From: an uncultured Bacillota bacterium
GTDB taxonomy: Bacteria; Bacillota_I; Bacilli_A; RF39; UBA660
Direction: 5' to 3'
Length of the DNA stretch: 64,000 nucleotides
Assembly: GCA_947165005.1 (NCBI GenBank)
Contig: CAMUYN010000004.1
Coordinates: 1,927 to 65,926 of the forward strand
Position numbers and translations under genes: made by a program. The notes below the pieces were generated by a model. It did not search any database. It was given only the letters and a program-made list of their open reading frames with translations, and was not told where the DNA came from. Of the stretch, positions 2,832 to 22,600 are shown in pieces; position 1 is the stretch's first letter; each line of letters starts with the position of its first letter.

Positions 2832-2841
2832 GTCTTTTTTA
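2813..2841 (+). terminator. Rho-independent terminator
   Basis: 9-bp stem agacttatt/aataagtct with loop tgaaa, followed by a T-run. The stem spans the stop codon. Confidence 0.7.
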
Positions 2842-2850
2842 TGTTATAAT
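2842..2850 (+). promoter_or_regulatory. Extended -10 promoter element TGtTATAAT
   Basis: tgttataat lies immediately after the terminator and 17 nt before the methyltransferase start. Confidence 0.45.
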
Positions 2851-2866
2851 TTTTTTGGTGATGATC

Positions 2867-3466: not shown

Positions 3467-3479
3467 TAGGTCTTTTTTT
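3455..3479 (+). terminator. Weak rho-independent terminator
   Basis: Stem aaagac/gtcttt with an 8-nt loop and a T-run. It is followed by another tgttataat at 3481..3489. Confidence 0.4.
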
Positions 3480-3505
3480 ATGTTATAATTATATAAGGTG
3501 GGAAT

Positions 3506-4453: not shown

Positions 4454-4462
4454 GAGGTCTAT

Positions 4463-7407: not shown

Positions 7408-7427
7408 TTTACAAATCATTTTTTTTG
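7390..7427 (+). terminator. Rho-independent terminator
   Basis: Perfect 11-bp stem atgatttgtaa/ttacaaatcat and a T8 run. The stop codon lies in the loop. Confidence 0.8.
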
Positions 7428-7458
7428 ATTATAATTATAGATGAAAGGAAGTAAAAAA

Positions 7459-8532: not shown

Positions 8533-8578
8533 TTAAAATACTATTTTCTTTTTTTATTTTCTAGTATAATAATACTAG

Positions 8579-9325
8579 GTGATTTATTTGGAAACATTAG
8601 TTAATGAATTAATTATATATTTCTTAAATGAAAAAGAACATCCGATTATTGATATGCCTAGTTCATATATTAATAAAAGAGAATTACTTAGAGGTTTAAT
8701 AAATGTAAGACCTGCAACGTATTTGGATGAAGAAATAATAAAAAAAGAGGATACTTTATTACAGCTAGAACTAAAAGAAAAAAATATTAAAGATATAAAC
8801 GAAATACCAGGTAGATTAAGCGTATGGAAGGGAAATATTACTGAAATAAAGACCGGTGCAATAGTTAATTATGCAACACCAAAATTAACAGGATGTTTTA
8901 AACCTAATCATAATTGTATAGATAACAATATTCATTCAAATGCAGGTATTCAATTAAGATTAAAATGCAAAGAAATATCTAGAGATAAAGAAATTGAAGT
9001 AAGTAAAGTTGCTTTGACTAAAGGATACAACTTGCCTTGTGATTATATTATTCATACTGTAAAACCTAATGTTGATGATATAGATGAAACAGTAATAGAA
9101 CAAATTAAGTACTGTATTATTAATTCTTTAGATTTAGCTAAAAAGAATAATATCGATACAATATGTATCCCAAATTTAACAGTTAAAACTGAGGATAAAG
9201 ACTTAGTTGCTAAGACTATATTAGATACGGTAAAGAATTATTTAAAAGATGATGATTTTTTCAAAAAAATAGTTATAAATGTATTAACTTTGGACAGTTA
9301 TAACATTTATTCGAAATATATATAA
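8579..9325 (+). CDS. Macro-domain protein (protein-ADP-ribose hydrolase family)
   Basis: WKGNITEIKTGAIVNYATPKLTGCFKPNHNCIDNNIHSNAGIQLRLKC matches the GNIT..IVNAAN..GCFxPxHxCIDNxIHxxAGxQLR pattern. The start is uncertain: GTG 8579, or TTG 8588 just after AGGTGA. Confidence 0.7.
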   Translation: MIYLETLVNELIIYFLNEKEHPIIDMPSSYINKRELLRGLINVRPATYLDEEIIKKEDTLLQLELKEKNIKDINEIPGRLSVWKGNITEIKTGAIVNYATPKLTGCFKPNHNCIDNNIHSNAGIQLRLKCKEISRDKEIEVSKVALTKGYNLPCDYIIHTVKPNVDDIDETVIEQIKYCIINSLDLAKKNNIDTICIPNLTVKTEDKDLVAKTILDTVKNYLKDDDFFKKIVINVLTLDSYNIYSKYI

Positions 9326-9327
9326 AA

Positions 9328-9353
9328 ATGATTAATTTTAATCATTTTTTTTT
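9328..9353 (+). terminator. Rho-independent terminator
   Basis: Stem atgatta/taatcat followed by T9. Confidence 0.7.
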
Positions 9354-9364
9354 GCTCAAAAAAC

Positions 9365-9394
9365 TTGAAAAAATATACCATATAATGATACAAT
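9365..9394 (+). promoter_or_regulatory. Candidate sigma-A promoter of the giant-protein operon
   Basis: TTGAAA (9365..9370), an 18-nt spacer, then TACAAT (9389..9394). Confidence 0.3.
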
Positions 9395-9416
9395 TATAAA
9401 GAGAATAGGTGAGTGT

Positions 9417-12400
9417 ATGGAAAATAAAAATAATAATAAAAGAATAGCTATTTATATAGCAGTATTGATTGCGCTTTTAGGGGGCAGTTTTATTATTTAT
9501 AAGATAGCAAGTGCATCTATAAATAATGCAGTTATTAGTAGAATTACTTTGACTTCAATTGAGACAGGTAATAATATTGATCCAGAAGGAGAAGATAATT
9601 TAGTTACTACCTGTGAAAGTGAGGATGCTTGCTTTAGTACATATACTGCATCAAAAGATAGTAGTAAAGAAAATATATTAGTAAAATCTTTTGATAAGAT
9701 TAAATATAATTTTAATTTTAATATTGTGGATTCTTCTGATTCAACACATGATATTGATGATGTAACAATTAATTTGAAAGTAAATCTTTCTGAAGAAGAT
9801 AAGAAATATGTTTCCTTTGATGGCATAAATTGTTCTAATGATGGATTATGCATAATTAGAAATAATAGTTCTTATGAAGCAAGTAATTATTCAGTAACTT
9901 TAAATGTTAATAATGCTCCAAATGGGTATGAGATTAAACCAACTTTTACATTTGATGTTGAAGATAACAAATTAGATACACCTGTAGTACTAGGATACAA
10001 TGAACTAAGTGAAACAAATTATTATTATTCTTATTTAGATGGAACATATTCATTTAATGGACCAGATAATAAAATGCCAACAATTGTTTCATCAAGTGAA
10101 GGAACTATTTCATATGTTTTATATCCAAACTCATCAGATACTAATTTTACACAAGGTGCTAAATATGATGGAAAAGATGGTAGATTTATTACTTATTTAC
10201 TAGGTATAAAAACAGATGGATCGTTATCTGGAACATATTATCCTAGTAATGAAATCACATTCAAAATTAATTTTTCACAAGATAATAGCTTAATACCTAT
10301 AGTACAAGATAATTGGATTAGATTTTATGATAACAATATAGTAGATAGTATAAGACCAATAACTTATAGTTTACCATATAGTATATTAAATTTAGATTCA
10401 GATAGATCAATAAGAAGACCAGGTAATATTTCAATATCAAAAAATGGATATGAAATAAATGTTAAAGTATCTGATTTCGATATTCTTTTAGATGGACCAT
10501 CTAAGAATGCTAATGATACAGACATAGATGGATCATATATATCAACACTTGCTATTACTAATTTCTCACCTAGAGGAGAAGCTGATGGACAAAATGTGAT
10601 TAATAATACAATTACATTATCAACAATTGATAATCAATTAATTGGAACTAGAACTATTGAAAACTCATATGAACAAGTTGCTGTTTCTTCAGGAAACAAT
10701 TTAAATGAGGAAAATAGTGCGGATATAGTAACATCATCTTCTTGGTATGATGAAAGTGAAACTACTCCATTATCACTTAGAAATGGAGGTTCAGGATCTG
10801 TTTCAAAAGGAACAATTGTTAAATATATTACTAAATTTAAAAATAATAAAACTTCTTTAAATAGTGGTTTAAAAGAAGTAATAAAATTTGATACATACGC
10901 CTATAGAGTTCTTCCATATGATACAAATAATGATATTGATATTAGAATTAAATGTGGAACAACAGATTGTAAAAATATATCATCAGATGATTTTGATATA
11001 AAATTTGTAAGTGGCTCTTTTGATTATTTTATTGATGATATAGTACAATATGAATTAAATGATATATCATCACTAAAATTATCAGATAATGATAAATCAA
11101 TTGCTAGTGCATGTTCAAATATTGATTTAACAAGTCTTAATAAAGATCAAATTCAAAATTTATATGGTGGACCATGTATAAAGGCTAAAGATAATATAGA
11201 AACTATATTTGATAAAATAAGTGATGCAACTAAGGTTTCTGGTGATACTGATACAGAAATTCCAATTAGTAAAATAATAGTTCAAACTAAAAAGGGTGTA
11301 ACTTTACCAGATGGAGCAGAAGTAACTGCAATAGTAAAAGCAAGAGTAAGAAATGTGTCTGATTTAACACATAATTATCAAGCAACTACCATGATTTCTA
11401 CATCTGATTATGATAATGAATTATATTATTATGCACCACAAATTAATGAAGCAATATCTAAAGATAACTATATTAAAACTGCATATGTGGGAAATACATC
11501 TATTGATTCTTATGACTTTATTGGAGATTCACTTAAAATAGTTAACTTTACACTTAGACAAAATATTAGTGTTACTAATAAAAATAGTGATGGTTCTTTG
11601 AAAACAAAATATAGAACTACTAATAATGAAATAATTACTTATAAATTAGAAACATCTTTAAGTGATAATAGTATGGATTTACAAGCAGATGATACTTGGT
11701 ATATCAAGAAAATATATACCTATGTATATATTCCAAAAACATTAGAGTATGTTCCTGACGATGGTTTAATTAAACCAGATATGGTTATAGATGATATAAA
11801 TGATACAGTTTTAAAATATACTATTGTTTCTTCTGGAGATAAAATTAAAGCTAATATGAAGATAAAGGATATTTATTTTAAAACTAAATTATCTCCTAAA
11901 TTAAGTGGACAAACAACAAATATAGTTGTCAGAAGTTATCCTGAAGGAGAAAACATTAATGGTGAAATTGATACTACAATAAGAAGTGGTAAGATGGCAG
12001 AATTTACTATTCAAGGAACAGGTATTAATGAAGTAATTGGATCAATATCAACTGGAAATTCCGGATCTGTTATAGAAAAGGATGGAACAATTGATTATGT
12101 ATTAAATGCTTATAATAATACTGGTGATGATGTAAATGATTATAAAATTATTGATGTTTTACCATATAATAGAGATAATAATAACTCTAGTTTTAATGGA
12201 AGTTATTCAGTTAAGATTACTTCTGATTTGGTTAATTTAGATAATATAAAATGTACAAAAGTATCACCAAATGAAATTAATAAAGATAATGATGATATAT
12301 GGAAATCTTGTGGAGATATCAAGAATTCATTTGTTTCTGATATTACAGGAATAAAAATTGATAATATTTCTATTGAACAAGAATCTTCTATGGATGAAAT

Positions 12401-14018
12401 AATTATTAGTTTGAAAACAAAAGATAATAAATCATCTGATAAATATAACAATAGTTTTAAAGGATACGCTAGTGGTTCAAATGAAAATGTTTCAAATGTA
12501 GTTGAAGTATCAGTTGTTAATAGGACAATTTCTGGAATAGTTTTCTTAGATGAAGAAGAAAATGGCGTAAAAGAAGATAATGAATCATTTATTAAAGATG
12601 TACCTGTTACTCTATATAAGATAAGCGAAACAGATGAATTAGATAAAGTAGCAGATACTACTACTGATGAAAATGGATATTATGAATTTAATAATTTAGA
12701 AAAAGGTAGATATAAGATAAGAGCAAAATATGATGTTAATAAATATGATTTAACTCTTAGATATGCTACTGAAGATACTTCAAAAGATTCTGATGCTTAT
12801 TTAATTGATTCTAATGGAACTATAGAAATAAGTGATAAAAATGAGGCTTCAAAAGGATTACTTCTTTCGGAAGAAATAAATGAATTATCTAATATGGATA
12901 TTGGATTAACTATTAAACATACTTTTGGATTTGTTATGAGCAAATATATTACTAGAATAGATTTATCTAATAATGGTTTATTAACTACAACTGATTATGA
13001 TAATTTATCAAAAGTATCAATAAATGTTATTAATCCAAAAAAATATACAGCAAAAGTATATTATGGAATATCAATTACAAATAATTCAAATAAAGCTGGA
13101 TATATTAACTTAGTTAAAGAGGATATACCAAATGGATTTATATTTGATAAGAATTATCCAGAAAATGCCGGATGGTTTGAAATGAATGGTATGTTAGGAA
13201 ATAGAAGTTTAGAAACTAAACTTGTTAGGCCTAATGAAACAGTATATCTACAAATAGTATTATTCTTACCAGCAAGAGATGAGGCGGGATCATTTATTAA
13301 TACTGCAAGTGTTGCAGAAGTAACTGAGTTTAATCCGACTACAAAAGTTATAAAAGAAAATGAATATGTTAATTCAGATGAATATCAAGTTGGCGATTCT
13401 CTAAGATATGCAGGAGTTAATTTCCATGTAATTGGTGCAGTACCAAATGGAAATGAACAAATACTAACTTTACTTGCTGATTCTAATCAAACTTCATTAA
13501 ATCATTTACCAAGTAATGGTGTTTATAAATGGAGTAATTCAATTATTAATAATTATATAAATAATGAATGGATCAATTTGCACAATATTAATCCTTCATC
13601 ATTAATACCATTTAATATATGTGATGATGCATCTGGATTATTTAATTCAAATGCAAATGGTGGAGTAGTAGATGCTAATAGTTGTGCATCAAATATTTAT
13701 ACAACATCTAATGCAAGATTACTTACTCAAGCAGAATTTAATACATTAATTAATAACTTAACTGATTCAAGTTTCTTATTTAACGGTGATTTCTGGTTAA
13801 TGGATGCAGTTTATGCTTCAAATGGAGATTATAATGAGTATGGAGAACTTAATGCGAATTATGATACATCAAATCTAGTTAAATATGTTAATTCATCAAG
13901 TTCTAGTGTACTTCCAGTACAAGGAACTAGTGGATTTGATAAGAATGTTAATGTTACATCTAAATTACAAGTTAGACCAGTAATTAGGATATCAACAAAT
14001 AACATTATATTGGAATAA
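9417..14018 (+). CDS. 1533-aa surface/secreted protein with N-terminal signal-anchor and no C-terminal anchor
   Basis: SD AGGTGAG. N-terminus KRIAIYIAVLIALLGGSFIIY. It contains DUF11-like segments, an SdrD-B-like domain and a DUF6273-like C-terminal domain (see sub-features). Confidence 0.85.
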   Translation: MENKNNNKRIAIYIAVLIALLGGSFIIYKIASASINNAVISRITLTSIETGNNIDPEGEDNLVTTCESEDACFSTYTASKDSSKENILVKSFDKIKYNFNFNIVDSSDSTHDIDDVTINLKVNLSEEDKKYVSFDGINCSNDGLCIIRNNSSYEASNYSVTLNVNNAPNGYEIKPTFTFDVEDNKLDTPVVLGYNELSETNYYYSYLDGTYSFNGPDNKMPTIVSSSEGTISYVLYPNSSDTNFTQGAKYDGKDGRFITYLLGIKTDGSLSGTYYPSNEITFKINFSQDNSLIPIVQDNWIRFYDNNIVDSIRPITYSLPYSILNLDSDRSIRRPGNISISKNGYEINVKVSDFDILLDGPSKNANDTDIDGSYISTLAITNFSPRGEADGQNVINNTITLSTIDNQLIGTRTIENSYEQVAVSSGNNLNEENSADIVTSSSWYDESETTPLSLRNGGSGSVSKGTIVKYITKFKNNKTSLNSGLKEVIKFDTYAYRVLPYDTNNDIDIRIKCGTTDCKNISSDDFDIKFVSGSFDYFIDDIVQYELNDISSLKLSDNDKSIASACSNIDLTSLNKDQIQNLYGGPCIKAKDNIETIFDKISDATKVSGDTDTEIPISKIIVQTKKGVTLPDGAEVTAIVKARVRNVSDLTHNYQATTMISTSDYDNELYYYAPQINEAISKDNYIKTAYVGNTSIDSYDFIGDSLKIVNFTLRQNISVTNKNSDGSLKTKYRTTNNEIITYKLETSLSDNSMDLQADDTWYIKKIYTYVYIPKTLEYVPDDGLIKPDMVIDDINDTVLKYTIVSSGDKIKANMKIKDIYFKTKLSPKLSGQTTNIVVRSYPEGENINGEIDTTIRSGKMAEFTIQGTGINEVIGSISTGNSGSVIEKDGTIDYVLNAYNNTGDDVNDYKIIDVLPYNRDNNNSSFNGSYSVKITSDLVNLDNIKCTKVSPNEINKDNDDIWKSCGDIKNSFVSDITGIKIDNISIEQESSMDEIIISLKTKDNKSSDKYNNSFKGYASGSNENVSNVVEVSVVNRTISGIVFLDEEENGVKEDNESFIKDVPVTLYKISETDELDKVADTTTDENGYYEFNNLEKGRYKIRAKYDVNKYDLTLRYATEDTSKDSDAYLIDSNGTIEISDKNEASKGLLLSEEINELSNMDIGLTIKHTFGFVMSKYITRIDLSNNGLLTTTDYDNLSKVSINVINPKKYTAKVYYGISITNNSNKAGYINLVKEDIPNGFIFDKNYPENAGWFEMNGMLGNRSLETKLVRPNETVYLQIVLFLPARDEAGSFINTASVAEVTEFNPTTKVIKENEYVNSDEYQVGDSLRYAGVNFHVIGAVPNGNEQILTLLADSNQTSLNHLPSNGVYKWSNSIINNYINNEWINLHNINPSSLIPFNICDDASGLFNSNANGGVVDANSCASNIYTTSNARLLTQAEFNTLINNLTDSSFLFNGDFWLMDAVYASNGDYNEYGELNANYDTSNLVKYVNSSSSSVLPVQGTSGFDKNVNVTSKLQVRPVIRISTNNIILE
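12528..12835 (+). other. SdrD B-like (Cna-B-type) domain inside the 1533-aa protein
   Basis: ISGIVFLDEEENGVKEDNESFIKDVPVTLYK...TTTDENGYYEFNNLEKGRYKIRAKY...DSDA fits the G-x-V-[FW]-x-D-x-N-x-N-G...T-x-x-G-x-Y-x-F-x-L-x-x-G-x-Y...DSD pattern. Confidence 0.6.
13383..14015 (+). other. DUF6273-like C-terminal domain
   Basis: YQVGDSLRYAGVNFHVIG...ILTLLAD...WSNSIINNYINNEW...ARLLTQAEF...FWLMDA...QVRPVIRIS follows the pattern known for DUF6273 (W-V-L, LLS-x-E, YWLRS, VRPA near the end). Confidence 0.45.
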
Positions 14019-14029
14019 AGAGGGATAAT

Positions 14030-14587
14030 ATGAAGATAATAAATAAATATAAAAATCAATTAGTCATAGGAGCAATTACCATTTTAGCTTTAATTGCTTC
14101 TATGATAATATTCTATAAACTAGATAATGATGGAATGAATAATTATGGTATATATAATGTTAAATATAAAGTATATCAAAATAATAAATGGTCTAAATCA
14201 TCAAGAAATGGTATTGAAATAGGAGATAAGATAAATCCTATAAAAAATATAGAAATTAGTACAAAAGAAAATGAAGGTAAAGTATATTTTTATACTTATA
14301 CTAATGAATGGTCAGAACAAACATTTATAAAGGGTGAAAATAATGAAAAAGATATCTCTGGTATAAAAATGAAATTATCTGACAAATTATATAAAAAATA
14401 TAAAGTATGTTATAGAACATATAATAAAAAAGATAAATGGCTTAACTGGGCATGTAGTGGTGAAATAAGTGGAAATAAAAAAGAACCAATAACTGCTATC
14501 GAAATAAAGATTATTCCAAAAAATAGTGTTAAGTTTGAATATCTAAAAGACTATAATAAAGTATTAAACAATAGTGAAAACTTCTAG
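14030..14587 (+). CDS. Membrane-anchored protein with three degenerate ChW-like repeats
   Basis: N-terminal helix LVIGAITILALIASMIIFY. Three Y-x-x-Y/H...W...G...I-x-x-I-x-I units, for example KVCYRTYNKKDKWLNWACSGEISGNKKEPITAIEIKI. It starts 11 nt after the upstream stop and has SD AGAGGG. Confidence 0.5.
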   Translation: MKIINKYKNQLVIGAITILALIASMIIFYKLDNDGMNNYGIYNVKYKVYQNNKWSKSSRNGIEIGDKINPIKNIEISTKENEGKVYFYTYTNEWSEQTFIKGENNEKDISGIKMKLSDKLYKKYKVCYRTYNKKDKWLNWACSGEISGNKKEPITAIEIKIIPKNSVKFEYLKDYNKVLNNSENF

Positions 14588-14598
14588 AGGAGGGCTAT

Positions 14599-17500
14599 AT
14601 GATTAAGAGATTTTTAAATAGAAAGAATCTAAGAATATTTGCATTAATCTTTTCATTAATATTAGTATTAGTTGCAATATATTATATAGATTTAGCAAAA
14701 TTTAATTCTAAACTCGTTAAATATGATAGTAAATATCTAATAAAAGTAACATATTTAATCGGTGATAGAGATAAATTAGATGAAAATATCACAATAGATG
14801 ATACAATTTTTAATAATGATGATTCTATTTTATATAACGCTTCTCAAAGAGTTCCACTTACAAAAAATGGAGATTATTTAGAAGCAGATTTAAGTTCATT
14901 TACAAATAAGATTCTATTAGAACATGTTTCGGATTATGTATTTGCTAATAATAACTTAAATGGTGAAACGGTAGAAGGATGTACTTATGATAAAGAAAAG
15001 AAGGTAATCAGGGTACCATTTAGTTTTTATAAGGATATAGATTCAAAATCAAATACTGCTCCTATTCAAATTGAAATTGAAAGCTTATTAACTAATAAAG
15101 AAATCAAAAATCTTAAGACAGATTATAGTGTAAAGAAATTAATTACATATAATAATACTGCAAGTAATGAACTTATGCAGTTAGATACAAAAATATCATT
15201 ATCTAATTATATTAATAGTGATTTATCTAAAGAAAATGTTTATGTATATTTAAATAATTCAAAAAATAGTTTAGACAAAGATTCATTTGAATATGATTAT
15301 AAAACAAAAACATTAATTATTGATATGCCTGCAATACTTATTAATAAGGTAGATATTAAAATAGGAAATAATATAATTAAAAATGTTTTTGCAGTAACTC
15401 CCGCTCAAATGACAGGATATAAGTTGACAGAAAAGCCACAGAATTTATTAGATTATAACAATTATAGGACTAGAGGTATGGTTTGGTCTGGTTCCTATGA
15501 AGGAGTATCGAATAATAATTTATTATTATATTGTTATGATACTACTACGAGAACTATAGAAGGTGGAAAGCAACAATGTATTGATTTTACTGTTGGTAAT
15601 ACAACATATGGTAAAACTGCAAATGATGCAGTAACAGTGTTTATGTATGATAGATCATATAGATGGACAGGATCAGAATATGCTGTTGCAAATACTCCTG
15701 GTTCATCTGGAGCACAATATAATGGCGATATGTGGCCTTATATGGTAAATACGGGGCATGCAACAATAAATGATGATGGACTAACTTTCTTGCCATTTGA
15801 AGATCCTGATTTATACATATTATTAGAATGTATTCATGATTCTGAAGCCGTAGCAAAAGCTTCAACAGATCCTATCTTTGTTAGAATAGGTATTTCTGAA
15901 GATCATAGCAGTGATAATTACTTAATTTTAAAGGCAACAACAGAAACCAAAGACCGTAACAAAGGTGGCTGGGGTGCTCAAATGGGTAAAGCATATTTTA
16001 AAGTGTATTGGGAAGACTCAACTTGTAAATTACCTGTTTCAAAAACCTTACAGTTAATATCACCTGATAGCACAGATGTTGCAACAGTATCAGCAGGTTT
16101 ATATACTAATAGTACTTGTACTGGTACACCTTTAGAAACAAAAAATATAAATGTAACTTTGGCCGATCAAGCTAGTACTTCTACAACATTTGATACAGAT
16201 TTACAAATTGGGCAAACATATTATTATAATGAAATAGGATTTACTGGACCAGGTGGAGTTAATTTGATGCCAAAATTTAACTACATGAATTGGCCTTGCT
16301 CCGATAGAGTAGCAGCAGATGATGATGGCGATGGATTATGCGATGATCCTGTCAACATGTATAATAATGAAGTGTCATACTGTTATAAAGTGTTTAAAAC
16401 AGATAAGGAGACGGGAAATCCGGTTAGGAATACGACATGGACAATGACTGGTGAAGATGGAGTTGTATATAGTCCAATTGTATTTGAGGAAAATAATAGT
16501 GCAACATTTACGGGTTTACCATATCAAAACTATACATTAAAAGAAACTACAGCTAATCCAGCTGACTTAGATGGAAATTCCAGTTTCGATTACTTTAACG
16601 ATAATGCAGCAGGAGTAACTGTTAATAAAACTAGTTTAACTCTAGAACCAGGCAGTTGTAATTCTACAACAAAAACAGATACTAAAGTATATTATTGTAT
16701 TAAGATAAAGAAAATGGATTATTCAACTGGCGAGGCCCTTGATGGGGCAGAATTTACTGCTACAAAGGGAAATAGGACTATAGATAAAAATAGTTCTGAT
16801 TATAGTTCTTCCAATGGAATTACCTCATTCTTTATAGGAGATAGTTCAACAATTGGTGCTTTCACTATAACTGAAACAGTTGCTCCTCCAGGATATACAA
16901 TTTTTGAAAGCAGCAAAGTAGTTTATCCAGTTGCATTATATGAATATGCAAGCGAAGGTGCTGCAAGAACTGCATGTTTAGGAAATAATACGCTTGCTTA
17001 TGATGGATCATCATTTGCTTCAAAAACATATAATAATGGAACTAACAATTATGTGTTTAGAGAAAAGAGTTATTTAATAAATTGGTATAAGACTGTAGAA
17101 GATGGTACAACAAAAGCTGATGGGGCTAAGTTCAAAGTAAGAAAACAAGGGACAAATCAATTTATAACAGTTAGTGCTCCAGAGAGTACAACTGACGGAA
17201 ATAGTATTAATAAAGCATGTTATCAGTATACAGGTACAAGCGAAACTGGAACAGAGATGACTGCAGGTTCTAAGGGTTCAACTAATATAAATATGACTGG
17301 TGAAGTCTGTGTTGCTGGTTTACCAACTGGAACATATACTATATATGAAACAGAAGCAGCAGAATATCATACTTTTGGTATGACAGATAATATTCATATA
17401 ACAGCAGATGATACATTTAAAGGTATGACTGATGGAAATAAGTTTATTAACTATAGAACTGAATTTGAATTCACTAAAGATGTTGCTTCTGGAGATGAAG

Positions 17501-20500
17501 TAATTAATGGAATGGACTGGAGTAGCATAACTACTGAAGAGTTAAAGCAAATTGCATTTGAAGTAACTACTGAAAACGGAAGTACACCACTTGCATTTAT
17601 TAAAGTTTCTGATGGAGTATATGAATATGTATCAAATGATATTGATTCACCAGCTGTTGTTCCACCAACACCACAATTATATATTGGTGATAATCGTAAG
17701 ATAAAAATATATCATTTACCTAAAGGAAGTTATAAAATTAAAGAGGTAAGAACATGCTGTGATACATCTTGTTCATCTTGCAATGCATCTTCTTGTAGTG
17801 GTTATTATTATCCAGAATATAATCCGGTAGATGACTTTAAATTTGTTATAGATGATTGTTCTTCATCAAATGCTTATGCAACATCATCATGTGGTGGTCA
17901 AATATCTACTGCATATACAACAAATTTACCAACTTCAATCTTACTTACTAAGAGAGATTTGTATGGATATGCAAATAGTTCAAAACCTGTAAAATTTGAA
18001 AATGAGGATGAAGTAAATGCATTTGACAATATAACATTTAGGTTAAAAGATGAAAATGGTAATTATGTTAAACTATTAAGAGTTGATGATTCTGCAACAT
18101 GTTCAAACTTCGGAACTGCAATATATAGATATGTTGATGAATCACTATTAACACAAGCTCAAAGAAATGCATTAACATATGATCTACATACATGTAATGG
18201 TCATATAGAAATAACTCATTTATGTAGAGGAAAAACATATATAATTGAAGAATATTCAGTTCCAAATAATACTGTATTTACAGTACCTGGTGTTCATATA
18301 GAAAAGACATATCAGTTACCGTTTACTGAAGATGGTAAAATGTGTTGTAATGATCATGAAGTAACACCAGTTACTCAGACTATTATTGATGATGAACCAA
18401 CTAGAATAGTTTTATACAAGAAGAATAATAGGACTAGTGATGATATTCACGAAGGAGCAAATAAAAAGGAAACTGCAACTTTTGAGGTATATGCATGTGA
18501 TTTAAATGTTGCAACATGTACTAAGAATCAATCTACTGGAAATAAAATTAAATTTGGAAATCCAATAGTACAAGGAAATGAGACAATTTATCCTGCATTA
18601 TTAGATCAAACAGCATATAGTGGTTATGTAACATCATTAAATCTTACAACTGAAGGTTCACAAGGTAAATTAGTATTAAAATATTTACCTTCAAACTATA
18701 AATATGTTGTCGTAGAAACTAATGCACCAGATGGATATTTTAATGTAATTGGTGCTCTAGCAGAAACTGAAATTGCATCGGTACCTACGAGTACAACTGA
18801 TGCTTCAGCAAATAGAAAAAATATTATTGATTATCCTACAATGATTAAATTCAAAAAGGATGATATTTATAAATATTATAGTAATAGTGATGTAGATCAA
18901 TTAAATTCTAGTAATAAAATCTTTGATACAATGACATTTGTACTAAGAGATAAAGATGGAAACATAGTTAGTCTTAAGAAAGTAGCTGATGGAGAATATA
19001 GATATATTCAAAATGATGGAACTACTACAGGCAATAATGTTACTGAATTACATACTAAAAATGGTGAATTATTAATTACTAATATTTATAGAAATGAAAA
19101 ATACTATATAGAGGAAACTAAATCTGATACAAAAGGTAATTTCATATTACCAAAGAATATTTCAAAACCATCAGGAATTCCTTCTGGATGGAATTGGAAA
19201 GGACATCCTTATGTTGTCTATAACTTAGGTTCTACATTACCAAATGGTTCTCAAGGTGGAACAGTAGCTCCTGAATCATTAACTAGTCTAATTGAAAATA
19301 AACCAACTAGGGTTGTATTTGAAAAGAGAGATAGAACTTCTGGTAGTTTAATTGATGATTCATTAAATAATGAAAAAATAACTTTCAATGTATATAGATG
19401 TCCTAAAACAGTAGAACATTGTAGAGCTAATTCACAAGGAGCAGAACTTGTATATTTTGAAGATAGAGCAGTAATTAATGGTTTAACTGATGATATATCT
19501 TCTGTTACACCACCTGTTTTAACTTATAAGTATAGTAAGACAAATTCTTCAAGCAATAAAGTATCTGATTTAATTACAGATAGAGGAGTATTAGTACTTG
19601 CTTATCTTCCTAGTGATTATAGTTATTCATTATTTGAAAAATCTTCAACTTATGGATACTATAAACCAACTGGAGCAGCAGCATATACAGATTTCACAGT
19701 ATTATCTGAATCAACTGATGAATCTGATTATGTAGATCTAACTGCTTTAGTAGAAAATACACCAACAGGATTAACATTTATTAAGAGTGATTTATATAAT
19801 TATTATACTGAAGACGATTTAAGTGCTATAAAGGCAGAATCATCAAGAATATTTGATTCTATATCATTCATATTAAGAGATAAAGATGGAAATATCTTAA
19901 ATGTAAAATGTACTTCTAATGGAGAAGTTCAAAATAATAAGAATACAAATAATTCTTGTAATACAGGAGAGTATAGATATCTTCCAGTAGATAATAAAAA
20001 CGTTATAAATGTATTGCATACTAAAAACGGTAAATTACAAGTTAATTATTTAAATGAAGGTGAAACTTACTATATAGAAGAAGTAAGTAGTGATGTAGAT
20101 AAATCATTTGTTTTACCTGATTACTTAGATAAAGATTTGAATTATGGTCAACAATTACCATTTGATAATAATGGTCATCCGGTTGTAAAATATATTCTTC
20201 CAAGTGAAATAGATTCTAATCAAGTTTCTGTTACTGCAGAGATAAAGAATATTCCAACTAGAGTTATATTTGAAAAGAGAGATAAAAAATATAATTATTT
20301 AATACCAGATGAAACTACAACATTTGAAGTTTATAGATGTCCTAAAGATAATGGAAATAACACATTGTGTAGTCCAAGTTCTTATAACACAGTAGAGGAA
20401 AGAGAGCAAGCTGGTATGAAGCTAATCAAGTTTGAACCTCGTTCTGTAATTACTAATGATTTAGAAGATCCTGGAATTGAAGTATATAAGATGATGAGTG

Positions 20501-21753
20501 ACAGTACTGCAGAAAATAAAACTATGTGTACTGATACAGTAACTACAAATTGTTATGTTAGTTCTGTTCATCCTTATGTAGGAAGATTAATTCTTAGATA
20601 TTTACAAGCTGATTATAACTATGTGTTATTAGAAACAGTTGCACCAACAAATTATAATTTACCTGTTGGAAGTAGTAGAGAAACTCCATTTAGTGTTGTA
20701 ACTAATACAGTATCAGTTGATGAAGTTGATATTCCAAATAAACCAACAGCACTAATAATAAGAAAATATGCTGATGTTGATGGAGATAGTGAGGCAGATA
20801 GTACAAAACTACTTGGTGGAGCTAAATTTAAAGTATATAAAGTAAATAATTATGATCCTTCTAAGAAAATACAAGATCAAGATAAAGAAATAGTTAAATT
20901 AAAAACTATTAAAGATGGTATATATGAAAATAGACCTGTACTTGATACAGATGTTATAACTACTTGTACAGGTGATAATTGTTCATATAATCCAAATACA
21001 ATTGGTAGTGATATTGAAAGCATAGATGATTTAATAAATGCATCTGGAACAAATATTACATCTGTATTAAAAGAAGGAACAGCATTAATTCAATATTTAG
21101 AATATAATACATACTATATTATTGAAGAAGTAGAAGCCCCAACTGGTTATAGCTTACCAGAAAATGATGATAATAGATTTACACTAGTACATATTAAAGA
21201 AAACGAAACAAAAGTAGTAGATACTTTAAATGCATTAGTAAATAAACCAACATCATTTACATTCTATAAATTTGATGAATATAATACACCACTTGATGGA
21301 GCAACATTCTATCTACAAAAATTAGATAATGAAAAGAAATATAATACTTTAACAGTATCAAAAGAAGTATTAGATAACGGAAAAGTTGTATATCGTTCAA
21401 ATCCTCTTTCAGAAGAAGTAAATATTACAACATCTGGTGGGGAAGCAACAGTATATTACTTAGAACCAGGTCAATATAGAATTCTAGAAGTAAGTGCTGC
21501 AGAAGGATATGAACTTCCTAAGAAAACAATAAATGTTGCTACATTCTTTGTTGATGAAGATGGATTAGTATATGGAAATAATATAATTACTAATAAAAAA
21601 CCATCAGAAACTATTGAGTATTTAGCATCTGATAAAGCAGAATTAATAATTAATATTCAAACTGGAAAAGTAGTTATAAAATATGGATTAATAATTGTAT
21701 TATTAGTCGGAACTATTGTTGGATTAATGATATTATTAAAGAAAAGAAAGTAA
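14599..21753 (+). CDS. 2384-aa surface protein with N-terminal signal-anchor, many SpaA/Cna-B-type (prealbumin-like) domains and a C-terminal NIQTG sorting signal
   Basis: SD GGAGGG. Repeated motif G-A-x-F-x-[VL]...G-x-Y-x-[IL]-x-E-x-x-AP-x-GY, for example LDGATFYLQK...EPGQYRILEVSAAEGYELP. The C-terminus is tripartite. Confidence 0.9.
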   Translation: MIKRFLNRKNLRIFALIFSLILVLVAIYYIDLAKFNSKLVKYDSKYLIKVTYLIGDRDKLDENITIDDTIFNNDDSILYNASQRVPLTKNGDYLEADLSSFTNKILLEHVSDYVFANNNLNGETVEGCTYDKEKKVIRVPFSFYKDIDSKSNTAPIQIEIESLLTNKEIKNLKTDYSVKKLITYNNTASNELMQLDTKISLSNYINSDLSKENVYVYLNNSKNSLDKDSFEYDYKTKTLIIDMPAILINKVDIKIGNNIIKNVFAVTPAQMTGYKLTEKPQNLLDYNNYRTRGMVWSGSYEGVSNNNLLLYCYDTTTRTIEGGKQQCIDFTVGNTTYGKTANDAVTVFMYDRSYRWTGSEYAVANTPGSSGAQYNGDMWPYMVNTGHATINDDGLTFLPFEDPDLYILLECIHDSEAVAKASTDPIFVRIGISEDHSSDNYLILKATTETKDRNKGGWGAQMGKAYFKVYWEDSTCKLPVSKTLQLISPDSTDVATVSAGLYTNSTCTGTPLETKNINVTLADQASTSTTFDTDLQIGQTYYYNEIGFTGPGGVNLMPKFNYMNWPCSDRVAADDDGDGLCDDPVNMYNNEVSYCYKVFKTDKETGNPVRNTTWTMTGEDGVVYSPIVFEENNSATFTGLPYQNYTLKETTANPADLDGNSSFDYFNDNAAGVTVNKTSLTLEPGSCNSTTKTDTKVYYCIKIKKMDYSTGEALDGAEFTATKGNRTIDKNSSDYSSSNGITSFFIGDSSTIGAFTITETVAPPGYTIFESSKVVYPVALYEYASEGAARTACLGNNTLAYDGSSFASKTYNNGTNNYVFREKSYLINWYKTVEDGTTKADGAKFKVRKQGTNQFITVSAPESTTDGNSINKACYQYTGTSETGTEMTAGSKGSTNINMTGEVCVAGLPTGTYTIYETEAAEYHTFGMTDNIHITADDTFKGMTDGNKFINYRTEFEFTKDVASGDEVINGMDWSSITTEELKQIAFEVTTENGSTPLAFIKVSDGVYEYVSNDIDSPAVVPPTPQLYIGDNRKIKIYHLPKGSYKIKEVRTCCDTSCSSCNASSCSGYYYPEYNPVDDFKFVIDDCSSSNAYATSSCGGQISTAYTTNLPTSILLTKRDLYGYANSSKPVKFENEDEVNAFDNITFRLKDENGNYVKLLRVDDSATCSNFGTAIYRYVDESLLTQAQRNALTYDLHTCNGHIEITHLCRGKTYIIEEYSVPNNTVFTVPGVHIEKTYQLPFTEDGKMCCNDHEVTPVTQTIIDDEPTRIVLYKKNNRTSDDIHEGANKKETATFEVYACDLNVATCTKNQSTGNKIKFGNPIVQGNETIYPALLDQTAYSGYVTSLNLTTEGSQGKLVLKYLPSNYKYVVVETNAPDGYFNVIGALAETEIASVPTSTTDASANRKNIIDYPTMIKFKKDDIYKYYSNSDVDQLNSSNKIFDTMTFVLRDKDGNIVSLKKVADGEYRYIQNDGTTTGNNVTELHTKNGELLITNIYRNEKYYIEETKSDTKGNFILPKNISKPSGIPSGWNWKGHPYVVYNLGSTLPNGSQGGTVAPESLTSLIENKPTRVVFEKRDRTSGSLIDDSLNNEKITFNVYRCPKTVEHCRANSQGAELVYFEDRAVINGLTDDISSVTPPVLTYKYSKTNSSSNKVSDLITDRGVLVLAYLPSDYSYSLFEKSSTYGYYKPTGAAAYTDFTVLSESTDESDYVDLTALVENTPTGLTFIKSDLYNYYTEDDLSAIKAESSRIFDSISFILRDKDGNILNVKCTSNGEVQNNKNTNNSCNTGEYRYLPVDNKNVINVLHTKNGKLQVNYLNEGETYYIEEVSSDVDKSFVLPDYLDKDLNYGQQLPFDNNGHPVVKYILPSEIDSNQVSVTAEIKNIPTRVIFEKRDKKYNYLIPDETTTFEVYRCPKDNGNNTLCSPSSYNTVEEREQAGMKLIKFEPRSVITNDLEDPGIEVYKMMSDSTAENKTMCTDTVTTNCYVSSVHPYVGRLILRYLQADYNYVLLETVAPTNYNLPVGSSRETPFSVVTNTVSVDEVDIPNKPTALIIRKYADVDGDSEADSTKLLGGAKFKVYKVNNYDPSKKIQDQDKEIVKLKTIKDGIYENRPVLDTDVITTCTGDNCSYNPNTIGSDIESIDDLINASGTNITSVLKEGTALIQYLEYNTYYIIEEVEAPTGYSLPENDDNRFTLVHIKENETKVVDTLNALVNKPTSFTFYKFDEYNTPLDGATFYLQKLDNEKKYNTLTVSKEVLDNGKVVYRSNPLSEEVNITTSGGEATVYYLEPGQYRILEVSAAEGYELPKKTINVATFFVDEDGLVYGNNIITNKKPSETIEYLASDKAELIINIQTGKVVIKYGLIIVLLVGTIVGLMILLKKRK
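17929..20664 (+). repeat. Three tandem copies of a two-domain (A+B) module, ~300 aa each, inside the 2384-aa protein
   Basis: A copies start at 17929, 18835 and 19762 (PTSILLTKRDLYGY / PTMIKFKKDDIYKYY / PTGLTFIKSDLYNYY). B copies begin PTRIVLYKKNNR / PTRVVFEKRDR / PTRVIFEKRDK. The copies are diverged at DNA level. Confidence 0.8.
21652..21753 (+). other. C-terminal sorting-signal-like tail: NIQTG + hydrophobic helix + KKRK
   Basis: Sequence NIQTGKVVIKYGLIIVLLVGTIVGLMILLKKRK-stop. Confidence 0.65.
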
Positions 21754-21761
21754 GGGATAAT

Positions 21762-22415
21762 ATGGCTAAGAACAAAGTTAAAAAACTTGATAAAAAACAA
21801 ATAATATTCTTATGCGTAGTAGGGATAATAGTCATATTATCCTTACTAGTAATTATTTCTAGTTTGTTTGGAAATTTTGAAACAGTAAAATTAAAGAAAA
21901 ATAATAATGAAATATTTACTATTAAGGATTTAACAATCAATAATCTGAAATTCTTATCAACATCTGAAGAAGTTATAAATGAATTGGGATATCCAAAACA
22001 AACAAAGAAAGTAAAAAAAGGGAAATATAATTATATTGAATATTATTATAAGGGTTTAAAACTAACATTAAAAGAAAATTATAATGACTATGTTTTAACT
22101 GGTGCAGAAATAACATCAAGTAAATATAAGACTAGCAGAAATATAAAAGTAGGAAATAAAGTATTAAAAGTAATTGATAAATATAATGTTGAGAATGAGT
22201 CAGGTAATTATATTTATAAAAATTATACTATTGATGCTTTAAATGATAATTTAGTAAAAGATAATGCTTATTTTAGCTATAGAAATAGTAAAGAAATAAG
22301 ATATTATAATAAAGATGCTGTTATTGAAGGTAGTCCTACAAATCGTGCTGAATTAAGATTTAATTATAGATTTGGTAGAATTAATAAAATAACATGGTCT
22401 TATGATATTAATTAA
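21762..22415 (+). CDS. 217-aa membrane-anchored protein of unknown function (last gene of the operon)
   Basis: Starts 8 nt after the upstream stop with SD AAGGGA. N-terminal helix IIFLCVVGIIVILSLLVIISSLF. I recognise no motif. Confidence 0.7.
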   Translation: MAKNKVKKLDKKQIIFLCVVGIIVILSLLVIISSLFGNFETVKLKKNNNEIFTIKDLTINNLKFLSTSEEVINELGYPKQTKKVKKGKYNYIEYYYKGLKLTLKENYNDYVLTGAEITSSKYKTSRNIKVGNKVLKVIDKYNVENESGNYIYKNYTIDALNDNLVKDNAYFSYRNSKEIRYYNKDAVIEGSPTNRAELRFNYRFGRINKITWSYDIN

Positions 22416-22439
22416 TTTATAAAAAATAAATAAATCTTG

Positions 22440-22468
22440 TTGACAAAAAATATCAGTAATGATATTAT
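22440..22468 (+). promoter_or_regulatory. Promoter of tRNA-Asn
   Basis: TTGACA (22440..22445), a 17-nt spacer, then extended -10 TGaTATTAT (22460..22468). The tRNA starts 21 nt further on. Confidence 0.65.
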
Positions 22469-22488
22469 TGATATTGTCAACAAGGATT

Positions 22489-22564
22489 GCTCGATTAGCT
22501 CAGTTGGTAGAGCGCTTGACTGTTAATCAAGATGTCACAGGTCCGAGTCCTGTATCGAGCGCCA
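22489..22564 (+). tRNA. tRNA-Asn (anticodon GTT)
   Basis: Hand-folded cloverleaf: acceptor gctcgat/atcgagc, anticodon stem cttga/tcaag with loop ctGTTaa, T-arm acagg-tccgagt-cctgt, encoded CCA. Length 76 nt. Confidence 0.93.
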
Positions 22565-22575
22565 TTTTGATATTA

Positions 22576-22600
22576 AAAGAGCCATATGGTTCTTTTTTTT
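22576..22600 (+). terminator. Rho-independent terminator
   Basis: Stem aaagagcc/ggttcttt (one G-U pair), loop atat, followed by a T-run. Confidence 0.6.

What the first reader, a model, noticed from the sequence alone, without database searches (positions are those of the whole stretch)
9417..22415. Four-gene, 13-kb surface-protein operon: an unanchored 1533-aa protein, a ChW-like protein, a wall-anchored 2384-aa stalk and a 217-aa unknown
Seen in sequence:
- Four same-strand ORFs are separated by only 11, 11 and 8 nt, each with its own SD.
- They are bounded by a strong terminator (9328..9353) and by the tRNA-Asn promoter.
- All four products begin with a K/R-rich segment plus one hydrophobic helix.
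- Only the 2384-aa product has the IQTG tail.

Inference: the four proteins are made together and may form one surface structure. One model is a SpaA/Cna-B-domain stalk carrying or cooperating with the 1533-aa protein, which ends in a DUF6273-like putative binding domain, with two small membrane-tethered accessory proteins. I know of no characterised system with this composition.
Basis: partly seen in the sequence, partly recalled or inferred. Interest (0 to 1): 0.6.

Follow-up and report, generated by a model that had tools for sequence, protein, structure and literature searches.

The report
Conserved four-gene surface adhesin cluster
An uncultured, small-genome gut bacterium and its relatives keep the same four surface-protein genes together (a long stalk, a large unanchored partner and two small membrane-tethered helpers), so they probably work as one attachment device of a composition not described before.

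Summary
ORFs of 1533 (A), 185 (B), 2384 (C) and 217 aa (D) lie at the stated coordinates, 11, 11 and 8 nt apart. Each has an SD and an N-terminal K/R-plus-helix segment, and only C ends in NIQTG-TM-KKRK.

- **Host:** an 875-kb, 26% GC MAG from ruminant gut. It belongs to a Bacilli lineage that includes 'Clostridium sp. CAG:433'.
- **Conservation:** all four families are confined to this lineage.
- **C:** a SpaA/CnaB-type stalk.
- **B:** a ChW triplet, supported at family level.
- **D:** a membrane-tethered tandem BLIP-like protein.
- **A:** an orphan 1030-aa head, with only 49 relatives among 1.84 billion representatives, followed by an SdrD-B domain. The DUF6273 call is below threshold.
- **Anchoring:** 'wall-anchored' is not shown. 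The tail [NGTS][IP]xTG looks like a sortase signal, but its closest studied analogue, C. difficile CbpA NVQTG, is not cut by SrtB in vitro.
- **Transcription:** no usable RNA data were found.

Verdict: a real, conserved, lineage-specific surface-protein module and a new variant of Gram-positive adhesin operons. Physical assembly is inferred only.

The parts
9324..9353 (+). A-U-rich hairpin plus U9. Likely terminator of the preceding gene (8579-9325) and the upstream boundary of the unit.
   Evidence: -7.4 kcal/mol, z -4.25. Sequence.
9365..9394 (+). Promoter-like site TTGAAA-18-TACAAT with an extended -10 TG
   Evidence: 10 of 12 matches, TG present. It is the only such site in the 91-nt gap before gene A. 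Consensus match only.
9417..14018 (+). Gene A, 1533 aa. It has an N-terminal signal or anchor helix, an orphan head (aa 1-1030), an SdrD_B domain (aa 1038-1131), a weak DUF11-like domain (aa 1209-1299) and a C-terminal roughly 190 aa with a sub-threshold DUF6273 resemblance. It has no C-terminal anchor.
   Evidence: Full-length homologues at 36-67% identity in every genome of the lineage.
12528..12809 (+). SdrD B-like (prealbumin-fold) domain of A
   Evidence: PF17210, E 5.7e-16, 59 bits against a cut-off of 29.7.
14030..14587 (+). Gene B, 185 aa. N-terminal TM helix plus three ChW-like repeats.
   Evidence: 19 of 34 family members hit PF07538. Model pLDDT 91. No PDB fold match.
14599..21753 (+). 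Gene C, 2384 aa. It has an N-terminal signal or anchor, a head of about 590 aa with no known domain, and then tandem SpaA/CnaB-type Ig-like domains carrying conserved Lys / Glu / Asn-Asp positions. It ends in a C-terminal sorting-like tail.
21652..21753 (+). C-terminal tail of C: NIQTG (aa 2352-2356), a conserved K-V-V-I-K-Y-G-L-I-I hydrophobic span, and KKRK.
   Evidence: Consensus [NGTS][IP]xTG across 20 or more homologues. No TIGR01167 hit.
21762..22415 (+). Gene D, 217 aa. N-terminal TM helix plus two BLIP-like/DUF4309-like alpha-beta repeats, ending in an invariant WSYD motif.
   Evidence: pLDDT 80; 3d4e E 4e-4; also 2qzb and 4ygt. It lies directly after a C-type gene in all 14 genomes of the genus.
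21817..21848 (+). 14-bp hairpin inside the D coding sequence, in the segment that encodes the TM helix
   Evidence: -18.7 kcal/mol, z -5.6. Similar hairpins in the G005 and G008 orthologues. Meaning unknown.
22436..22484 (+). Palindrome over the tRNA-Asn promoter. It is the only structured element between D and the tRNA and has no U-run.
   Evidence: -21.9 kcal/mol, z -6.9.
22489..22564 (+). tRNA-Asn (GTT), with a terminator at 22575-22596. This is the downstream boundary.

Best explanation
The locus is a co-expressed, lineage-specific cell-surface adhesion module of a small-genome gut Bacilli lineage. That lineage includes 'Clostridium sp. CAG:433' and is probably of the RF39 type.

**Core pair (C and D).** C is a long stalk whose head has no known fold. 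Tandem SpaA/CnaB-type domains, probably stabilised by isopeptide bonds, hold the head away from the cell. C is held at its C-terminus by a tripartite [NGTS][IP]xTG-hydrophobic-KKRK tail. I rate covalent transfer to peptidoglycan by one of the lineage's 2-5 sortases at about 55%, and an uncleaved membrane anchor at about 45%. D is a membrane-tethered tandem BLIP-like protein that is always encoded next to C. Its ectodomain is short, so it can reach only the membrane-proximal part of C. That part is the most conserved region of C. I infer that D binds this region and helps to position, retain or present C during anchoring.

**B.** B is a membrane-tethered ChW triplet. ChW is a module best known from endolysins and is thought to bind the wall. 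B probably ties the complex to the wall.

**A.** A is a conserved 1500-aa protein with an orphan head and no C-terminal anchor. It is a second ligand-binding component. It is either kept by its N-terminal helix or displayed through the C-type partner.

**Shown:** the gene layout, the domain content, the lineage restriction and the conserved clustering.

**Inferred:** the single transcript, export, the mode of anchoring, and any contact between the four proteins.
For: Layout:
- Gaps of 8-11 nt, SDs, one promoter-like site and no terminator at any junction.

Synteny:
- D lies directly after a C-type gene in all 14 genomes of the genus.
- All four genes are in one cluster in G000, G008, G005, G001, G007, G004 and L049-L053.
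- The order is a cyclic permutation, A-B-C-D or B-C-D-A.
- A paralogous pair, an unanchored A-like protein of about 1400 aa followed by an IQTG-tailed C-like protein of about 900 aa, recurs in at least 8 genomes.

Lineage restriction:
- None of A, B or D has a convincing match in the 46 other genera sampled; the only hits there are marginal ones to A's SdrD-type domain and to D.
- The head of A has only 49 relatives among 1.84 billion representatives.

Domains:
- SpaA x5 in C, E 5.8e-44, with K / E / N-D positions.
- SdrD_B in A.
- ChW at family level in B.
- BLIP-like fold in D.

Tail:
- T-G is invariant, P2 is variable, and P3 is Ile or, once, Pro.
- A paralogous LQIQTG tail passes the LPXTG_anchor cut-off.
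- Genomes of the genus carry 2-5 sortases.

C's last 520 aa are its best-conserved part (42-77% identity against 23-45% for the head).

Literature:
- ChW repeats act in triplets and occur mostly in endolysins (PMC5817068).
- RF39 keeps peptidoglycan, sortases and spo0A (PMC10868615).
Against: - There is no transcript evidence. The only runs that hold the sequence are low-depth fragments of unknown type.
- A is unlinked from C-D in 5 of 14 genomes, and B is absent from 4. A fixed four-part machine is therefore not obligatory.
- P0003's own tail does not hit TIGR01167.
- The tail's flanks (AEL[IV][IV] and [IV][KR]YGLII) are more conserved than usual for a sorting signal. NIQT also aligns with the inter-domain junction N-x-P-T.
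- C. difficile SrtB does not cut NVQTG.
- This genome shows only one sortase, which fits no class, though the assembly is 88.6% complete.
- The fold matches for D have high probability but low TM-scores (0.23-0.45).
Confidence: 0.55

Rival explanations
1. The genes are co-located but independent. A and C are two separate adhesins, and B and D are unrelated small envelope proteins. They share a promoter or a neighbourhood but form no common structure.
For: A is on a different contig or far from C-D in G013, G012, G010, G006 and G002. B is missing from 4 genomes. Gene order differs between genomes. No interaction data exist.
Against: C-D adjacency is kept in 14 of 14 genomes at 38-82% protein identity. 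The four-gene cluster is kept in at least 11 genomes across hosts that include ruminants, rabbit and human. A paralogous A-like/C-like pair recurs. D occurs only beside C-type or A-type genes.
Confidence: 0.25
2. C is not sortase-anchored. The xIxTG tail is the end of a vestigial CnaB-like strand followed by a permanent transmembrane anchor, or it is handled by an enzyme other than sortase. 'Wall-anchored' would then be wrong. This rival concerns only the anchoring step and is compatible with the module model.
For: NVQTG of C. difficile CbpA is not cleaved by SrtB in two independent assays (PMC4155245; PMC4371152). P0003's tail gives no TIGR01167 hit. I-I-N-I-Q-T aligns with the junction motif I-x-N-x-P-T. 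The residues after TG (KYGLII) are unusually conserved. Only one unclassifiable sortase is seen in this genome.
Against: The pattern is that of a pentapeptide sorting motif: invariant T-G, free P2, and one GPRTG variant with Pro at P3. The TM-plus-basic tail is canonical. Relatives have 2-5 sortases of three size classes. The LQIQTG tail of the 3798-aa paralogue passes the LPXTG_anchor cut-off. The CPBP protease next to that paralogue is not kept adjacent in G007 or G009.
Confidence: 0.4
3. The locus encodes a sortase-polymerised pilus. C would be the shaft pilin and A a tip or base subunit.
For: There is a weak hit of C (aa 2064-2217) to the SpaH/EbpB major-pilin model, E 2.3e-9. C has SpaA-type domains with E-box-like motifs.
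Against: The pilin hit scores 36.6 bits against a cut-off of 95. No sortase gene lies in or beside the cluster in any of the loci examined. The genome's sortase is not class C (39 bits against 160). A has no sorting signal, so sortase cannot join it through its C-terminus. Neither A nor C has a YPK pilin motif. At 2384 aa, C is far larger than shaft pilins.
Confidence: 0.05

Closest known systems
C. difficile CbpA (collagen-binding surface protein with an NVQTG tail)
   Same: It is a surface protein of a Firmicute gut anaerobe whose C-terminal tail has N-[VI]-Q-T-G in place of LPXTG. The same genome also carries xPxTG sortase substrates. Here there are three [NS]P[PK]TG proteins. In both cases the mode of anchoring is unresolved.
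   Different: No sequence comparison with CbpA was made here. CbpA is a single gene product with a known ligand (collagen). Nothing in the papers read mentions an accessory ChW protein, BLIP-like protein or large unanchored partner.
MSCRAMM-type adhesins (Cna, SdrD): head plus CnaB/SdrD-B repeat stalk plus sorting signal
   Same: C has the same plan: signal, non-repeat head, tandem CnaB/SpaA-type domains carrying the Lys/Glu/Asn positions, and a C-terminal tripartite tail. A carries an SdrD_B domain.
   Different: No collagen-binding or SdrG-type A-region was detected in either head. The motif is xIxTG, not LPXTG. The gene is embedded in a conserved multi-gene unit.
Sortase-dependent SpaA-type pilus operons
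   Same: Both are clusters of several surface-protein genes with SpaA-fold domains.
   Different: There is no cluster-encoded class C sortase and no YPK pilin motif. Only one of the four proteins has a sorting-like tail.
Csc (cell-surface complex) clusters of lactobacilli and enterococci
   Same: Conceptually the nearest. They are conserved, lineage-restricted clusters of about four genes whose products use different anchoring modes and are thought to form one extracellular complex.
   Different: There is no homology. No DUF916 or other Csc-type domain appears in the Pfam scans, and no W-x-L motif occurs in A or C. The components here are a SpaA stalk, a ChW triplet, a BLIP-like protein and an orphan 1500-aa protein.
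ChW-repeat proteins (C. acetobutylicum ChW family; endolysin wall-binding modules)
   Same: B has three repeats with the Y-x-Y...W...W...G...SGN...I-x-I pattern, and triplets are the proposed functional unit.
   Different: B itself scores below the Pfam cut-off (16.1 against 22 bits). It is a small N-terminally membrane-tethered protein with no enzyme domain. The ligand of ChW is unknown.
BLIP-like / DUF4309 (YjgB) / YfeY small envelope proteins
   Same: The ectodomain of D models as two helix-plus-four-strand repeats. Its best PDB matches are 3d4e, 2qzb and 4ygt (probabilities 1.00, 0.99, 0.90).
   Different: There is no sequence-level family hit. TM-scores are low because the two halves are oriented differently. 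D is TM-anchored rather than a lipoprotein, and it is tied to an adhesin gene.

Membership tests
Sortase-dependent pilus operon (SpaA type) | Pilus-specific class C sortase encoded in the cluster | tested here: not met
   No sortase ORF in 9417-22415 or its flanks. The only sortase is on another contig and scores 39 bits against 160 for class C. None is present in the related loci.
Sortase-dependent pilus operon (SpaA type) | All subunits carry a C-terminal sorting signal, and the shaft pilin has a YPK pilin motif | tested here: not met
   Only C has a sorting-like tail. There is no YPK in A or C. The major-pilin model NF033902 scores 36.6 bits against a cut-off of 95.
LPXTG cell-wall-anchored proteins (TIGR01167) | C-terminal LPXTG-type pentapeptide plus hydrophobic span plus basic tail, matching the model | tested here: inconclusive
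   The tripartite layout is present. P0003's tail gives no TIGR01167 hit, while the paralogous LQIQTG tail of the 3798-aa protein scores 17.7 against a cut-off of 15.9. The motif consensus is [NGTS][IP]xTG.
LPXTG cell-wall-anchored proteins (TIGR01167) | Cleavage after Thr and linkage to peptidoglycan by a sortase | not testable with these tools
   This needs biochemistry. The nearest analogue, NVQTG, is not cleaved by C. difficile SrtB.
CnaB/SpaA-domain stalk adhesins (MSCRAMM-like) | Tandem prealbumin-like SpaA/CnaB domains with Lys (first strand), Glu (Y-x-h-x-E) and Asn/Asp (last strand) | tested here: met
   PF17802, 5 stretches, E 5.8e-44. Eight N/D-x-P-T...K junctions and at least 7 Y-x-h-x-E motifs. 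Formation of the bonds themselves was not tested.
CnaB/SpaA-domain stalk adhesins (MSCRAMM-like) | Recognisable ligand-binding A region (Collagen_bind or SdrG-type) | tested here: not met
   No Pfam family in C aa 1-600 or A aa 1-1000, even at E up to 1. No PDB sequence match.
ChW (PF07538) | Match to the ChW repeat profile above the gathering score | tested here: inconclusive
   P0002 scores 16.1 bits against 22. However, 19 of 34 family members match at E up to 0.01, best 7.5e-7. One homologue carries a precomputed PF07538 hit. The three-repeat pattern is visible in the alignment.
DUF6273 (PF19789) | Match above the gathering score in the C-terminus of A | tested here: not met
   14.4 bits against 23.5 in P0001. 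Only 2 of 10 further family members give a hit, both below the cut-off at E 0.013-0.047.
BLIP-like / DUF4309 fold | Tandem helix plus four-strand antiparallel sheet repeats, superposable on solved members | tested here: inconclusive
   The model (pLDDT 80) shows two such repeats. Foldseek gives 3d4e at E 4e-4 (probability 1.00), 2qzb at 0.99 and 4ygt at 0.90, but TM-scores are only 0.23-0.45. There is no Pfam or NCBIfam hit.
Csc/WxL cell-surface complex clusters | WxL-domain and DUF916 proteins in the cluster | tested here: not met
   The Pfam scans of all four proteins return no such domains. No W-x-L motif occurs in A or C.

The most novel reading that the evidence does not exclude
The lineage may use a previously undescribed surface-fibre system. 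Stalk proteins would carry an isoleucine-type xIxTG tail with conserved flanks (AELIIN-IQTG-xxxIKYGLII). A dedicated membrane-tethered BLIP-like partner (D), together with a specialised sortase or another enzyme, would handle that tail. The anchored stalk would in turn display a large unanchored orphan protein (A). The recurrence of unanchored A-like plus IQTG-tailed C-like gene pairs in these roughly 1-Mb genomes suggests this. If so, it would be a new sorting and display route. It might also explain how CbpA-type NVQTG proteins are anchored, and how these reduced-genome gut bacteria attach to host or partner cells.
Probability: 0.18. Interest if true: 0.7.

Novelty: new variant of a known kind. 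Interest (0 to 1): 0.45.

Why it matters
Small-genome uncultured gut Bacilli of this lineage are common in ruminants, rabbits and humans, and how they live is largely unknown. This genome spends about 5.5% of its assembled bases on a handful of giant surface proteins. One conserved, lineage-wide module among them combines a stalk, an orphan 1500-aa protein and two small membrane partners. It is the best available handle on how these organisms attach to a host, a particle or another microbe.

The xIxTG tail also gives a second, much larger natural set of examples for the unresolved question raised by C. difficile CbpA. That question is whether N-[VI]-Q-T-G tails are sortase substrates and, if so, which enzyme acts on them. 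Relatives with three size classes of sortase are natural candidates to test.

Tried and rejected
- **RNA evidence.** Two run searches and one read-laying gave only 150-480-nt low-depth contigs from runs of unknown type. Some cross the A/B, B/C and C/D junctions, but they cannot be called RNA, so they are not used as support.
- **PDB sequence searches of A and C** returned nothing.
- **Fold search of the B model** gave no match at E up to 0.001.
- **Self-BLAST of C for repeats** failed for technical reasons. Motif scans replaced it.
PF02517 genes were mapped in all 14 genomes. The roughly 330-aa orthologue lies next to the 3798-aa IQTG gene here. In G007 it is on a different contig from the orthologous giant, and in G009 it is about 110 kb away. 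It is never inside the A-D cluster. The lead is therefore not supported as a general partner.
- **DUF6273 for the C-terminus of A**: rejected as a family call.
- **Pilus reading**: rejected (see rivals).
- **Toxin, contact-dependent inhibition or phage origin**: no such domains were found in any Pfam or NCBIfam scan, and GC content matches the genome.
- **Search of A's head against 1.84 billion representatives** found only its own family, so no remote annotation could be transferred.
Full report
**1. Observation**

All are on the + strand, with gaps of 11, 11 and 8 nt. Each start is preceded by a purine-rich SD.

All four products begin with a K/R-rich stretch and a single hydrophobic helix of about 20 residues. 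Only C ends in AELIINIQTG-KVVIKYGLIIVLLVGTIVGLMILL-KKRK.

The upstream hairpin (9324-9349, followed by nine U) is real but made almost wholly of A-U pairs. It folds at -7.4 kcal/mol with z -4.25. A promoter-like TTGAAA-18-TGaTACAAT follows at 9365-9394.

Downstream lie the tRNA-Asn promoter (22440-22468), the tRNA gene (22489-22564) and its terminator (22575-22596). There is no U-tailed terminator between D and the tRNA, only a strong palindrome (-21.9 kcal/mol). Read-through into the tRNA is therefore possible. ORFs of 1533 and 2384 codons in 26% GC DNA cannot be chance.

**2. The organism**

The window is C4:1927-65926 of an 875-kb, 33-contig assembly estimated 88.6% complete. The GC content is 25-27% on every contig.

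The assembly encodes Spo0A, one sortase and an FtsW/RodA-like protein. Public runs that hold the sequence are goat, bovine and other gut metagenomes.

Named records carrying the same gene cluster are MAGs labelled Bacilli, Firmicutes, Tenericutes or Erysipelotrichaceae bacterium. They come from rumen, sheep, roe deer, rabbit and human gut, and include 'Clostridium sp. CAG:433' and UMGS855. Small genomes that keep peptidoglycan genes, sortases and spo0A fit what is described for order RF39 (PMC10868615). The order assignment is my inference.

**3. What the proteins are**

*Protein C.*
- Pfam finds five SpaA (prealbumin-like) stretches, E 5.8e-44.
- From about aa 1100 to 2350 there are eight junctions of the form [ND]-x-P-T-x5-K.
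- There are at least seven Y-x-h-x-E-x-x-A-P-x-G-Y-type motifs.
- These are the Lys, Glu and Asn/Asp positions that form intramolecular isopeptide bonds in CnaB-type domains (established knowledge). Whether the bonds form was not tested.
- The first roughly 590 aa match no family.
- No PDB chain is similar by sequence.

*Protein A.*
- It has one clear SdrD_B domain (aa 1038-1131, E 5.7e-16) and a weak DUF11-like stretch.
- Its C-terminal resemblance to DUF6273 stays below the cut-off. P0001 scores 14.4 bits against 23.5, and only 2 of 10 further family members give a hit.
- Its 1030-aa head is an orphan. A full HMMER pass over 1.84 billion representative proteins found 49 hits, essentially all family members or fragments of them.
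- Conservation is even along the whole protein. Three Cys pairs are invariant.

*Protein B.*
- B is a ChW-type protein at family level. Its own score is 16.1 bits against 22, but 19 of 34 homologues hit ChW, best E 7.5e-7.
- The alignment shows three repeats.
- The model is confident (pLDDT 91) and has no counterpart in the PDB.
- ChW repeats are thought to work as triplets. They occur mostly in endolysins, and their ligand is unknown (PMC5817068).

*Protein D.*
- D has no family hit.
- It models (pLDDT 80) as a TM helix followed by two helix-plus-four-strand repeats.
- The best PDB matches are a putative beta-lactamase-inhibitor-like protein (3d4e, E 4e-4), YfeY (2qzb) and the DUF4309 protein YjgB (4ygt). 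This is a fold used for protein-protein binding in envelope proteins.
- TM-scores are low (0.23-0.45), so this is a fold-level resemblance, not a family membership.

**4.

*Distribution.* Searches of 61 genomes (the 14 of this genus plus one or two from each of 46 other genera of the family, order and class) gave these results:
- D is in 14 of 14 genomes of the genus. Outside it there is only one marginal hit, E 4e-4 with two in-frame stops.
- B is in 10 of 14 and nowhere else.
- A is full-length in 14 of 14 and nowhere else.
- C-type proteins are in 14 of 14.

*Gene maps within the genus*:

| Arrangement | Genomes |
|---|---|
| A-B-C-D | G000, G008, G001 |
| A-B-C'-D-C | G005 |
| B-C-D-A | G007, G004 |
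| D divergent from A-C | G003, G011 |
| C-D-B, A elsewhere | G013 |
| C-D only, A elsewhere, no B | G012, G010, G006, G002 |

*Further genomes.* A profile search of a collection of 185,579 species genomes added six more, including CAG:433 and UMGS855. Five read B-C-D-A, and the sixth is a contig that begins within D and continues into A.

*Conclusions from the maps.*
- All four genes are in one cluster in at least 11 genomes.
- B-C-D-A and A-B-C-D are cyclic permutations of each other.
- The invariant core is C followed directly by D.
- In every locus mapped, D lies beside a C-type or an A-type gene.
- A paralogous two-gene unit, an unanchored A-like protein of about 1400 aa followed by an IQTG-tailed C-like protein of about 900 aa, occurs in this genome (C2:22082-28985). 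It is also present in at least seven relatives.
- The last 520 aa of C are its best-conserved part (42-77% identity). The head is the least conserved (23-45%).

**5. The tail and 'wall-anchored'**

In this genome four giant proteins end in IQTG-type tails: 900, 2384, 3798 and 5645 aa. Three others end in [NS]P[PK]TGD tails.

Across more than 20 C-type proteins the tail reads ...S-A-A-E-L-[IV]-[IV]-[NGTS]-[IP]-x-T-G-x3-[IV]-[KR]-Y-G-L-I-I...KK[RK]. The variants are NIQTG, SIQTG, TIQTG, NITTG, NISTG, TISTG, GINTG, GIRTG, GPRTG and one NIQTC.

*For a sortase signal.*
- T-G is invariant, P2 is free, and one variant has Pro at P3. That is the signature of a sortase pentapeptide.
- The paralogous LQIQTG tail passes the LPXTG_anchor cut-off.
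- Relatives carry 2-5 sortases of three size classes.

*Against a sortase signal.*
- P0003's own tail does not hit that model.
- The flanks are unusually conserved.
- I-I-N-I-Q-T aligns residue for residue with the inter-domain junction I-x-N-x-P-T.
- This assembly shows only one sortase, which fits no curated class.
- The nearest studied motif, NVQTG of C. difficile CbpA, was not cleaved by SrtB in two independent studies. Their authors doubted sortase anchoring (PMC4155245; PMC4371152).

I put covalent wall anchoring at about 55%.

That adjacency is not kept in G007 or G009, and CPBP genes are never inside the A-D cluster.

**6. Most likely mechanism**

*Shown.* One promoter-like site, four tightly spaced genes, no junction terminators, conserved clustering, and the domain content above.

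*Inferred.*
- The four proteins are made together and exported by their N-terminal helices.
- C projects an unknown-fold head on a rigid CnaB-type stalk and is fixed at its C-terminus.
- B and D stay at the membrane on short tethers, so they can touch only the wall or the membrane-proximal, conserved end of C.
- D, a protein-binding fold always encoded after C, most likely binds that end or the unprocessed tail. It would help to retain, orient or present C during anchoring.
- B, a ChW triplet, most likely binds a wall polymer.
- A, conserved along its whole length and lacking a C-terminal anchor, is a second ligand-binding component. It is held either by its own N-terminal helix or by the C-type partner. 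The recurring A-like/C-like pairs favour some dependence of A-type proteins on C-type proteins.

*Rivals.*
- Independent adhesins that merely share a neighbourhood (0.25).
- An uncleaved membrane anchor in place of wall linkage (0.4; orthogonal to the module model).
- A sortase-built pilus (0.05). It is rejected because there is no class C sortase, no YPK motif and no sorting signal on A.

**7. Comparison with known systems and novelty**

C works like an MSCRAMM or CbpA-type stalk adhesin and meets the CnaB/SpaA-domain criterion. It lacks a recognisable ligand-binding A region and a canonical LPXTG.

The cluster is not a SpaA-type pilus operon, because the defining features were tested and not met. 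Conceptually it is closest to the Csc 'cell-surface complex' clusters of lactobacilli, which are conserved, lineage-restricted, roughly four-gene sets with mixed anchoring. That comparison rests on my own knowledge, and there is no homology.

I found no described system that combines a SpaA stalk with an xIxTG tail, a BLIP-like membrane partner, a ChW triplet and an orphan 1500-aa protein. I rate it a new variant of a known kind, the Gram-positive surface-adhesin operon.

Interest is moderate. The module is real, conserved and specific to a little-known gut lineage, and it enlarges the NVQTG puzzle. However, no unexpected mechanism has been shown.

**8. Limits**

- No transcript data were usable.
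- No multimer prediction was available.
- No structure was predicted for A or C.
- The genome is incomplete.
- The order-level taxonomy is inferred.

Noticed in passing
window 35957-47353 (and 34865-35851): A 3798-aa protein ends in VILQIQTG-TM-KRHKRI, and this tail passes the LPXTG_anchor cut-off (17.7 against 15.9 bits). A CPBP/Rce1-like membrane protease gene lies just upstream. That adjacency is not kept in G007 (different contigs) or G009 (about 110 kb apart).
   Followed up: partly
own genome C2:22082-28985 (outside the window): A paralogous two-gene unit. A 1402-aa unanchored protein shares A's aa 883-1304. It overlaps by 8 nt a 900-aa protein that ends in AELIINIQTG-TM-KKK. The same pair, in the same order, occurs in at least seven relatives.
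   Followed up: partly
own genome, all contigs: Eight surface-protein genes (A, B, C, D, the 3798-aa and 5645-aa giants, and the 1402/900-aa pair) take up 48 kb, or 5.5% of the 875-kb assembly. Two tail classes coexist: IQTG type (4 proteins) and [NS]P[PK]TGD type (3 proteins).
   Followed up: partly
window 21817-21848: A 14-bp hairpin (-18.7 kcal/mol, z -5.6) lies inside the D coding sequence, 55 nt after its start, in the TM-helix codons. Comparable hairpins occur at the same place in the G005 and G008 orthologues, with partly different sequence. It could be a regulatory or stability element, or a by-product of codon use.
   Followed up: partly
window 22436-22484: A strong palindrome (-21.9 kcal/mol, z -6.9) spans the tRNA-Asn promoter and leader. 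It has no U-run, so transcripts from the four-gene unit may run into the tRNA or be processed there.
   Followed up: partly
L001 16-744 and 1267-1869 (own genome C14): A Spo0A-like response regulator lies two genes upstream of the genome's only detected sortase (200 aa). That sortase fits no NCBIfam sortase class (best is class C, 39 bits against 160). Relatives have 2-5 sortases of three size classes.
   Followed up: partly
own genome C3:62407-65294 and 74338-75390: A tandem family of four paralogues of 206-250 aa, plus a fifth of 350 aa about 9 kb further on. All share the N-terminus ...VISLGVAFAAFS-x-x-LNINGTA. It looks like a family of exported proteins with a special signal peptide. Not examined.
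   Followed up: no
L026 (G005:C45) 1302-19667; L038 (G012:C5) 3751-15404: G005 has two C-type genes flanking D (1798 aa before it, 2351 aa after). This window's C is full-length similar to the second and most similar in its C-terminus to the first, which suggests recombination between stalk genes. G012 has two tandem C genes, one with NIQTC instead of NIQTG.
   Followed up: no
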